Sequence record: MK327937.1
Direction: 5' to 3' (one strand)
Source: Escherichia phage vB_EcoM_G10400
Length of the DNA stretch: 64,000 nucleotides
Positions 45,315-46,221 of the stretch are shown piece after piece (position 1 is the stretch's first letter; every line of letters begins with the position of its first letter). Below the pieces are notes generated by a model. That model saw nothing but the letters and a program-made list of their open reading frames with translations, was not told the origin of the DNA and did no database searches. The translations under genes and the position numbers were made by a program.

Positions 45315-45995
45315 TTATTTTAATGTTACGAAAGAAGAATTACGTGTTTCACGAATTAGAACTGATCCGTCACGATTAATGTAGTAAATTAAGCTAAATA
45401 AAGTTTGGTGTGCCGACGCATGTTCAAAACTAGTTGGGTGAGATTTCCAATCTGGGGTTTCAGCAATCCATTGATAAATCCACCAAGGAACAGTGCAGAA
45501 TCCTGGATTTTTTCCAATCAGCTGAAGATTCGGACTAAAGTTTTCCGGAAGAGTAAATACAGACGGCTTTTCGGATTCAATAATCTCAGCTACAGCCTGT
45601 TCGAATTTTTCTTCAACAAAAGGAGTATCTTCAATTAAAACAGTGGTATTTTCAGGAATTTTATCCGTTTCTACTACTTCAATTTTAATGTCAGATTTAA
45701 CCGGAGAATCAATCAGAAGTGCTGCCTCTGGATTGACTTCTTCATCGTCATATTTTAATCCGTCTGCGGCATCAGCAGCATCAATTAAGTCTTTAATAGA
45801 TAACCCATCAGTCTCTGGCATAGGTTCACTAGCGAGCTTCTGGAGAGCTTCTTCAATATCATTAACGATATTATCAAAAGATTTATTCTTTTTGACCTTT
45901 ATACCAAACTGTTCAGCATATTCAGCTAATTTAGCTTTAGCTTCTTTATTATCATCAAGAGCCTTCAGCTCTGCAATATAATCTTTATCTATCAT
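45315..45995 (-). CDS. inh: Inh, inhibitor of prohead protease
   Basis: 226 aa; position between hoc and segE. Confidence 0.75.
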   Translation of the reverse strand: MIDKDYIAELKALDDNKEAKAKLAEYAEQFGIKVKKNKSFDNIVNDIEEALQKLASEPMPETDGLSIKDLIDAADAADGLKYDDEEVNPEAALLIDSPVKSDIKIEVVETDKIPENTTVLIEDTPFVEEKFEQAVAEIIESEKPSVFTLPENFSPNLQLIGKNPGFCTVPWWIYQWIAETPDWKSHPTSFEHASAHQTLFSLIYYINRDGSVLIRETRNSSFVTLK

Positions 45996-46017
45996 AATAT
46001 TTCCTCAGTATAAATAT

Positions 46018-46139
46018 CTGTCTCTTATACACATCTCCGAGCCCACGAGACCGTACTAGATCTCGTATGCCGTCTTCTGCTTGAAAAAAAAAAAAAAAAT
46101 AAAAAAAAAAAAAAAAAAAAAAAAAAAAAAAAAAAAAAA
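46018..46139. other. Illumina Nextera adapter read-through (mosaic end, i7 index, P7) plus poly-A; an assembly/sequencing artefact
   Basis: CTGTCTCTTATACACATCT CCGAGCCCACGAGAC CGTACTAG ATCTCGTATGCCGTCTTCTGCTTG followed by 16 A, one T, 39 A; flanked by an exact 55-bp duplication (45963-46017 = 46140-46194). Confidence 0.95.
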
Positions 46140-46221
46140 CTTCAGCTCTGCAATATAATCTTTATCTATCATAATATTTCCTCAGTATAAATATAGATAT
46201 ATTTATTACTCGGAAAATAGT

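What the first reader, a model, noticed from the sequence alone, without database searches (positions are those of the whole stretch)
45963..46194. Illumina Nextera adapter, poly-A and a duplicated 55-bp flank embedded in the assembly
Positions 46018-46083 read as the Nextera mosaic end (CTGTCTCTTATACACATCT), CCGAGCCCACGAGAC, an 8-nt index (CGTACTAG, which from memory matches i7 N702) and the P7 end (ATCTCGTATGCCGTCTTCTGCTTG). A 56-nt A-run with one T follows (46084-46139), then an exact repeat of the 55 bp preceding the adapter (45963-46017 = 46140-46194). This is the signature of a read that ran through its insert into adapter and poly-A and was then assembled in. It is not biological. It sits in the inh/segE intergenic region and duplicates the TATAAATA late promoter there; removing 46018-46194 restores a normal ~27-nt spacing between the promoter and the segE RBS.
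Basis: partly seen in the sequence, partly recalled or inferred. Interest (0 to 1): 0.8.

Follow-up and report, generated by a model that had tools for sequence, protein, structure and literature searches.

The report
Sequencing adapter left in phage assembly
A 177-base stretch between two genes of this T4-like phage is not phage DNA: it is an Illumina Nextera adapter, a run of A's and a duplicated 55-base flank left by the assembly, and it should be deleted.

Summary
Positions 46018-46083 are the 66-nt Nextera read-1 read-through adapter: mosaic end, CCGAGCCCACGAGAC, index CGTACTAG, P7 end. Positions 46084-46139 are 55 A plus one T. The 55-mer 45963-46017 equals 46140-46194 exactly. All 30 listed relatives (720 phage records matched) lack exactly these 177 bases, give or take one. 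T4 and four close relatives align with the window without a mismatch on both sides of one clean gap.

I add the mechanism behind the duplication. Flank = 55 = k and tail = 56 = k+1. That is what a k=55 de Bruijn assembly of a circular genome gives if an unclipped adapter/poly-A tip is appended and the contig is then rotated to T4 gene order. A toy k=55 graph reproduces the window at every base except the T at 46100.

Three GenBank Tequatrovirus genomes from one study carry the same 55|66|56|55 layout at other loci with other indices. That study used Nextera, MiSeq, SPAdes "55kmer" and rearranged its contigs.

Deleting 46018-46194 restores the 49-nt inh-segE spacer. Biological interest is low. 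It matters only as a data-quality issue.

The parts
45963..46017 (.). Copy 1 of the 55-mer. It is real phage sequence: the inh start codon, its first 11 codons, its RBS and a TATAAATA motif. It is the last genomic k-mer before the read-through junction, i.e. the end of the original contig's genomic part.
   Evidence: Identical to 46140-46194. Present once in T4, G4507, PYPS2T, ACG-C40 and JK08. It is the branching vertex in the toy k=55 graph.
46018..46036 (+). Tn5 mosaic end, reverse complement (CTGTCTCTTATACACATCT).
   Evidence: Exact match. Named as Nextera transposase sequence in PMC3906532.
46037..46051 (+). Nextera read-2-side adapter stub, CCGAGCCCACGAGAC.
   Evidence: Exact match. PMC3906532 gives the 34-mer as the sequence to trim off read 1.
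46052..46059 (+). 8-nt i7 sample index, CGTACTAG (N702).
   Evidence: Exact match. The N702 label is paired with this 8-mer in PMC5570097. Sibling records carry other 8-mers at this position.
46060..46083 (+). P7 flow-cell end, ATCTCGTATGCCGTCTTCTGCTTG.
   Evidence: Exact match. The same 24-mer follows the index in all adapter-bearing records examined. The name P7 is from my own knowledge.
46084..46139 (+). 56-nt A tail (55 A, T at 46100). These are base calls made past the end of the library fragment. Its length equals k+1 for k=55.
   Evidence: The tail is 56 nt in all three sibling records. The toy graph gives A56 as the tip edge plus one turn of the A self-loop.
46140..46194 (.). Copy 2 of the 55-mer: the start of the original contig, brought next to the contig end when the sequence was rotated.
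   Evidence: Relatives continue colinearly from here into segE.
45315..45995 (-). inh (inhibitor of prohead protease), 226 aa, intact. Its start lies inside copy 1.
   Evidence: ORF. Same position and length as T4 inh and as the gene annotated in relatives.
46222..46839 (+). segE GIY-YIG homing endonuclease, 205 aa, intact.
   Evidence: ORF. Pfam SegE_GIY-YIG, E = 3e-9. T4 segE is at the equivalent position.
46056..46172 (-). Spurious 38-aa ORF created by the artefact: the duplicated inh start fused to poly-Phe (MIDKDYIAELKFFFF...).
46081..46158 (+). Spurious 25-aa poly-Lys ORF created by the A tail.

Best explanation
This is an assembly artefact, not phage DNA.

Shown:
- 46018-46083 is the Illumina Nextera adapter as it appears at the 3' end of read 1 when the insert is shorter than the read.
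- It is followed by an A-rich tail.
- The pair is bracketed by two identical copies of the 55 nt that precede it.
- All 177 nt are missing from relatives.

Inferred mechanism:
1. Untrimmed reads were assembled in a de Bruijn graph with k = 55.
2. The circularly permuted T4-type genome formed a cycle. That cycle branched at the 55-mer ending at 46017, where one read-through junction survived as a tip.
3. The assembler output one path: the genome edge, which starts and ends with that 55-mer, then the tip (adapter + A55), then one turn of the poly-A self-loop (making A56).
4. The linear contig was cut elsewhere and its old end joined to its old start, to give T4 gene order. That placed 55-mer | adapter | A56 | 55-mer inside the genome.
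5. The single T at 46100 is a substitution in the noisy tail, from a bubble choice or from read-based polishing.

Correct sequence: delete 46018-46194, or equivalently 45963-46139.
For: - Adapter identity and coordinates are exact, with literature identity in PMC3906532 and PMC5570097.
- Absence in relatives: the 30 best of 720 phage records span 177 (+/-1) fewer bases. The alignment shows one 177-column gap with perfect flanks in T4, G4507, PYPS2T, ACG-C40 and JK08. The inh-segE spacer is 49 nt in all five, against 226 = 49 + 177 here.
- The same 55|66|56|55 layout occurs at three other loci, with other indices, in vB_EcoM_G4507, KAW1E185 and G4500.
- Their paper states Nextera kit, MiSeq v3 600-cycle, SPAdes 3.12.0 careful '55kmer', and that T4-like assemblies were rearranged to match published phages. 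It mentions no Illumina adapter trimming (PMC6563267).
- A toy k=55 graph of the corrected window plus one read-through read, with the path rotated, equals the window at 63,999 of 64,000 positions.
- Reciprocal check: the window is intact where G4507 carries its own 122-nt artefact, and window 12814-12868 matches both of G4507's flank copies.
- Window position 1 aligns to G4507 record position 64138, so the source genome is laid out in the same T4-type order.
- Related 'flank | adapter | flank' joins with 259-nt and at least 400-nt flanks occur in Pseudomonas phage SaPL and Streptococcus phage D1024.
Against: - No raw reads or original contig are available, so the contig-end join is inferred, not seen.
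- I could not locate the source record. It is absent from the phage collection, IMG/VR, JGI metagenomes and the exact-protein index. Its assembler and k are therefore unknown.
- The T at 46100, and the non-A stretches in the tails of G4507 and G4500, are not produced by the simple graph model. They need an extra assumption: a bubble variant or mismatch correction.
- That base calls past the fragment end come out as A on four-colour instruments is my own knowledge. I found no citation for it.
Confidence: 0.92

Rival explanations
1. It is still an artefact, but made inside the assembler rather than by joining contig ends. A chimeric read, scaffolder or gap-closer threaded the path from the genome into the adapter/poly-A tip and back to the same 55-mer.
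For: The raw contig was not seen. Some adapter-bearing records have layouts that are not simple k-mer joins, such as Paenibacillus phage Pd_22F (adapter, poly-G, second adapter) and Bacillus phage Tomato (an N run beside the adapter).
Against: No graph edge from the A tail back to the 55-mer is expected; in the toy graph the tip ends in the A55 self-loop. Flank = k and tail = k+1 are exactly what an end-to-start join predicts. Four T4-type genomes laid out in reference order show the same numbers, and the sibling paper says the contigs were rearranged.
Confidence: 0.07
2. It is a genuine insertion in the phage genome: a retroposon-like or otherwise mobile 122-bp element ending in poly-A and flanked by a 55-bp target-site duplication.
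For: The layout of direct repeats around an insert ending in poly-A superficially resembles a retroposed sequence.
Against: The insert is base-for-base a synthetic Illumina oligonucleotide with a sample index. It is absent from all related phages. The same structure with different indices sits at unrelated loci in sibling assemblies, once splitting the essential gp5 gene. The insert encodes nothing. Its 41% G+C adapter (27 of 66) and A56 tail are unlike the flanking DNA.
Confidence: 0.005

Closest known systems
Nextera adapter read-through contamination in deposited assemblies (the kind flagged by NCBI VecScreen or FCS-adaptor)
   Same: Exact 66-nt read-1 read-through sequence: mosaic end + CCGAGCCCACGAGAC + index + P7. 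The same adapter is found in 44 phage records of the collection, mostly at record ends.
   Different: Here it lies 46 kb inside the window, in the interior of a genome, and is bracketed by a duplicated flank, so end-trimming alone would not remove it.
The same artefact in Escherichia phages vB_EcoM_G4507 (MK327946 / NC_054919), vB_EcoM_KAW1E185 (MK373781 / NC_054922) and vB_EcoM_G4500 (MK327945)
   Same: Identical layout: 55-nt flank | 66-nt adapter | 56-nt A-rich tail | 55-nt flank. All are Tequatrovirus genomes in T4 gene order. G4507 is the closest relative of the window, at 98.4-99.4% identity.
   Different: Different genomic positions (inside gp5; between RNase H and gp34; inside a long CDS) and different indices (CGAGGCTG, ACCGATCG, CCACGGCC). 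In G4507 the artefact splits gp5 into two annotated CDS. Here it falls in an intergenic spacer and breaks no gene.
k-mer terminal overlap of circular genomes in de Bruijn graph assemblers (SPAdes, largest k = 55), kept after manual rotation
   Same: The duplicated flank is exactly 55 nt. The toy graph gives a genome edge that starts and ends with this 55-mer. The sibling study used SPAdes with '55kmer'.
   Different: A plain overlap gives two adjacent copies. Here a 122-nt adapter/poly-A tip is trapped between them.
Retroposed sequence with poly-A tail and target-site duplication
   Same: Direct repeats bracket an insert that ends in an A run.
   Different: The content is a synthetic oligonucleotide. 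A 55-bp 'duplication' equals an assembler k. No relative carries it. Nothing suggests a biological origin.

Membership tests
Illumina Nextera read-1 read-through adapter | 19-nt mosaic end CTGTCTCTTATACACATCT followed directly by CCGAGCCCACGAGAC | tested here: met
   Exact at 46018-46051. Unique in the window even with 3 mismatches allowed, 0 of 100 shuffles. The 34-mer is given as the read-1 trim sequence in PMC3906532.
Illumina Nextera read-1 read-through adapter | 8-nt i7 index, then P7 end ATCTCGTATGCCGTCTTCTGCTTG | tested here: met
   CGTACTAG at 46052-46059 and the 24-mer at 46060-46083. The N702 label is paired with this 8-mer in PMC5570097. Other records have other 8-mers in the same slot.
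Illumina Nextera read-1 read-through adapter | Foreign to the organism: absent from homologous loci of relatives | tested here: met
   The 30 best of 720 records lack 177 (+/-1) nt. Single clean gap in the alignment with T4 and four others.
Illumina Nextera read-1 read-through adapter | Supported only by read-through reads; no read pairs span the junctions | not testable with these tools
   Raw reads are not available and the source record was not found.
Joined ends of a k=55 de Bruijn contig of a circular genome | Exact duplication whose length equals the assembler's largest k | tested here: met
   55 nt, not extendable by one base. 55 nt in three sibling records assembled with SPAdes '55kmer'. 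The window's own assembler is unknown.
Joined ends of a k=55 de Bruijn contig of a circular genome | Tip ends at the homopolymer vertex plus one loop turn (tail = k+1) | tested here: met
   The tail is 56 nt here and in all three siblings. The toy graph yields A56. The non-A bases in the tails are not explained by the toy model.
Joined ends of a k=55 de Bruijn contig of a circular genome | Genome re-ordered after assembly, so that contig ends become internal | tested here: inconclusive
   Window position 1 aligns to G4507 record position 64138, consistent with T4-type ordering. Rearrangement is stated for the sibling phages. It was not shown for the window's own record.
Retroposon or mobile insertion with target-site duplication | Insert of biological origin, found in other genomes or encoding or recruiting mobility functions | tested here: not met
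   The insert is a synthetic adapter. Only spurious poly-Phe and poly-Lys ORFs are present. No relative carries it.

The most novel reading that the evidence does not exclude
The only non-artefact reading is that the 177 bp are physically present in the phage DNA, for example as an engineered or laboratory-recombinant phage that picked up library DNA. A more useful reading that the evidence does support is practical. The 55|66|56|55 pattern fingerprints one assembly routine. Screening for 'flank | adapter | flank' would find further internally contaminated public phage genomes, some in RefSeq, with broken or fused genes.
Probability: 0.005. Interest if true: 0.4.

Novelty: not a real feature. 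Interest (0 to 1): 0.08.

Why it matters
There is no biological significance. It matters for data quality in four ways:
- The record is 177 bp too long.
- It shows a false duplication of the inh start and of a TATAAATA late-promoter motif.
- It yields spurious poly-Phe and poly-Lys ORFs.
- It would mislead promoter, repeat or indel analyses of the inh-segE region, which is a homing-endonuclease locus where real indels are of interest.

The same routine left adapters inside at least three deposited Tequatrovirus genomes. One is a RefSeq record in which the essential baseplate gene gp5 is annotated as two CDS. In all, 44 phage records in the collection carry this adapter.

Tried and rejected
**Finding the source record.** Its methods or a corrected version would have helped, but it was not found:
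- Not in the phage collection: best match 99.4% over 95% of the query, and 98.4% over 25 kb.
- No hit for the flank+adapter junction in IMG/VR or in JGI metagenomes.
- No exact record for Hoc, the spurious 38-aa ORF or the HNH ORF.

**Citation for poly-A calls past the fragment end.** Two literature attempts gave nothing usable. The point rests on my own knowledge and on the A-rich tails seen after the adapter in other records.

**Citation for the SPAdes k-mer end overlap.** The paper I read does not state it explicitly, so I demonstrated it with a toy graph instead.

**Literature on adapter contamination in GenBank.** The search returned nothing specific.

**Biological readings considered and rejected.**
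- Retroposon-like insertion with target-site duplication.
- A product of SegE homing.
- A real promoter duplication.

All three fail because the insert is a synthetic oligonucleotide and is absent from all relatives.

**Regulatory scans.** Sigma-70 promoter and terminator scans of 45800-46400 found nothing. Rfam found only the tRNAs in the window.

Full report
**Observation**

I read 45700-46500 and checked every element by script.
- 46018-46036 is CTGTCTCTTATACACATCT.
- 46037-46051 is CCGAGCCCACGAGAC.
- 46052-46059 is CGTACTAG.
- 46060-46083 is ATCTCGTATGCCGTCTTCTGCTTG.
- 46084-46139 is a 56-nt tail of 55 A with one T at 46100.
- 45963-46017 is identical to 46140-46194 (55 nt), and the repeat cannot be extended by a base on either side.

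The 66-mer occurs once in the window, and no other Illumina adapter 12-mer occurs anywhere. The 34-nt core is unique even with three mismatches allowed, with none in 100 shuffles. Composition-based expectations are about 10^-36 for the adapter and about 10^-26 for the 55-mer repeat. Among direct repeats of 30 nt or more, this is the only 100%-identical pair. The others are diverged paralogous repeats: Hoc domains, alt paralogues, gp23/gp24.

**Context**

The window is a Tequatrovirus (T4-like) genome segment. Its closest record is Escherichia phage vB_EcoM_G4507, at 99.4% around the locus and 98.4% over 25 kb. The genes are hoc (43887-45305, minus), inh (45315-45995, minus), segE (46222-46839, plus) and uvsW (46842-48350, plus). 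Their order, lengths and strands match the T4 reference annotation, and segE hits Pfam SegE_GIY-YIG.

The artefact lies in the divergent inh-segE spacer. Copy 1 of the 55-mer contains the inh start codon, its first 11 codons, its RBS and a TATAAATA motif, so all of these appear twice (TATAAATA at 46009 and 46186). No real gene is broken. Two spurious ORFs are created: 46056-46172 minus (MIDKDYIAELK + poly-Phe) and 46081-46158 plus (poly-Lys).

**Identity of the insert**

PMC3906532 (Turner 2014) gives CTGTCTCTTATACACATCTCCGAGCCCACGAGAC as the sequence to trim off read 1 of Nextera libraries. [quoted passage not shown] The paper explains that reads from short inserts run through the insert into this adapter, and beyond the fragment when more than about 70 bases are adapter. 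CGTACTAG carries the label N702 in a published primer table (PMC5570097). That the last 24-mer is the P7 flow-cell end, and that four-colour instruments tend to call A past the fragment end, is my own knowledge; I found no citation for the latter. Empirically, the same adapter in other phage records is followed by A runs. In one record it is followed by a G run, as expected for two-colour chemistry.

**Absence from relatives**

A 2601-nt query around the locus matched 720 phage records. The 30 best each align in two pieces and span 2421-2425 nt where the window spans 2598-2601, which is 177 (+/-1) nt fewer. An alignment of the window with G4507, Yersinia phage PYPS2T, ACG-C40, Shigella phage JK08 and T4 shows one 177-column gap. 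On the 3' side every aligned column, including the whole 55-mer, is identical in all six sequences. On the 5' side a single column varies among the relatives. The inh-segE spacer is 49 nt in all five annotated relatives and 226 = 49 + 177 nt in the window. Deleting 46018-46194 restores the T4 spacer exactly.

**Why the flank is duplicated: shown and inferred**

*Shown.* The 66-nt adapter occurs in 44 records of the phage collection, mostly at record ends. Three Tequatrovirus genomes carry it internally in exactly the same layout as the window: 55-nt flank | 66-nt adapter | 56-nt A-rich tail | the same 55-nt flank. They are G4507, KAW1E185 and G4500. The loci are unrelated: inside gp5, between RNase H and gp34, and inside a long CDS. 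The indices differ: CGAGGCTG, ACCGATCG, CCACGGCC.

Their paper (Korf et al. [quoted passage not shown] It mentions no Illumina adapter trimming.

*Inferred.* In a k=55 de Bruijn graph the circular genome is a cycle. A read-through junction branches off at the last shared 55-mer. The genome edge therefore starts and ends with that 55-mer. The tip spells adapter + A55 and ends at the A55 vertex, whose self-loop adds one A. I built this toy graph from the corrected window treated as a circle, plus one read-through read ending at 46017. It has exactly two branching vertices (the 55-mer 45963-46017, and A55) and three edges. The path genome edge + tip + loop, rotated to the window's start, is identical to the window at 63,999 of 64,000 positions. 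The sole difference is the T at 46100. Flank = k and tail = k+1 are thus predicted rather than fitted.

The T here, and the non-A patches of equal length in the G4507 and G4500 tails, need an extra assumption: a same-length bubble variant, or the read-based mismatch correction of 'careful' mode. That step is not tested.

**Reciprocal check**

Comparing the window with G4507 positions 63500-128500 gives colinear blocks. Window 6417-12868 matches G4507 70186-76637, and window 12814-46017 matches G4507 76760-109952. So window 12814-12868, which is 55 nt, matches both flank copies of G4507's own 122-nt artefact, and the window lacks that artefact. The window's gp5 is an intact 575-aa ORF (12303-14030). 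RefSeq NC_054919.1 annotates two 'baseplate hub subunit and tail lysozyme' CDS on either side of the adapter. Each genome therefore serves as the clean control for the other's artefact.

The same comparison puts window position 1 at G4507 record position 64138. The source genome is thus laid out in the same T4-type order, as expected for a rotated contig (inference).

**Broader class**

Pseudomonas phage SaPL (259-nt flank repeat, 95-nt insert) and Streptococcus phage D1024 (at least 400-nt flank repeat, 109-nt insert) show the same 'flank | adapter | flank' logic with other overlap lengths. Bacillus phage Tomato and Paenibacillus phage Pd_22F carry internal adapters with other layouts.

**Rivals**

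1. An intra-assembler chimera rather than an end join. It cannot be excluded without the raw contig. It does not predict the k and k+1 lengths, nor their recurrence in four reference-ordered genomes.
2. A real insertion resembling a retroposon, with poly-A and a target-site duplication. It is rejected because the insert is a synthetic indexed oligonucleotide, no relative has it, and sibling assemblies have it at other loci with other sample indices.

**What I could not do**

I could not find the window's own record or its reads. Searches of the phage collection, IMG/VR and JGI metagenomes and the exact-protein look-ups were all negative. The assembler, the k value and the rotation are therefore inferred for this genome from the numbers and from the sibling records.

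**Verdict**

This is not a biological feature. Delete 46018-46194.
- Confidence that it is an artefact: about 0.99.
- Confidence in the specific k=55 tip-plus-rotation mechanism: about 0.8-0.9.
- Biological interest is low (0.08). The value lies in curation.

Noticed in passing
L002 (NC_054919.1 76094-77359, reverse complement); L012 12573-14477: RefSeq genome NC_054919.1 / MK327946.1 (vB_EcoM_G4507) holds the same 55|66|56|55 adapter artefact (index CGAGGCTG) inside gp5. The gene is annotated as two CDS, of 226 and 402 aa. The window's gp5 (12303-14030) is an intact 575-aa ORF.
   Followed up: yes
L003 (NC_054922.1 145695-146960) and L004 (MK327945.1 123362-124627): vB_EcoM_KAW1E185 carries the artefact between RNase H and the gp34 tail-fibre gene. 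In vB_EcoM_G4500 an annotated 'hypothetical protein' CDS (G4500_00214) spans the whole stretch that contains the adapter and tail.
   Followed up: partly
phage collection; L005, L007, L015, L017: 44 public phage records contain this Nextera adapter. About nine phages have it internally. Examples: Bacillus phage Tomato (DNA polymerase split, N run beside the adapter), Paenibacillus phage Pd_22F (adapter + poly-G + second adapter), Pseudomonas phage SaPL (259-nt flank duplication) and Streptococcus phage D1024 (at least 400-nt flank duplication).
   Followed up: partly
window 4512-6434: The tRNA cluster has 7 tRNAs (Arg, Met/Ile-CAT, Thr, Ser, Pro, Gly, Leu) against 12 annotated in G4507. A GIY-YIG endonuclease ORF (4591-5256, minus, 221 aa) lies between tRNA-Arg and the others. 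A 210-aa ORF annotated in other phages as an HNH endonuclease (5802-6434, minus) follows tRNA-Leu, where G4507 has tRNA-Gln. Window 5798-6417 has no megablast match in G4507. The HNH ORF is at least 99% identical in 48 other phage records, so this is an ordinary mobile-gene polymorphism.
   Followed up: partly
window 43887-45305: Hoc is 472 aa, against 376 aa in T4. It has a 288-nt tandem repeat (44449-44736 / 44737-45024, 77% identity), which corresponds to an extra Ig/PKD-like domain. G4507 and JK08 share the 472-aa form.
   Followed up: no
window 46842-48350: uvsW is a 502-aa ORF here and in G4507, where a separate 76-aa ORF annotated as helicase follows it. The T4 RefSeq record annotates one 587-aa uvsW and notes sequence discrepancies in that section.
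   Followed up: no
window 59117-61374: Two diverged direct repeats spaced about 2055 nt apart (158 nt at 72% identity, 31 nt at 97%). They correspond to the two tandem Alt-like ADP-ribosyltransferase paralogues annotated in G4507.
   Followed up: no
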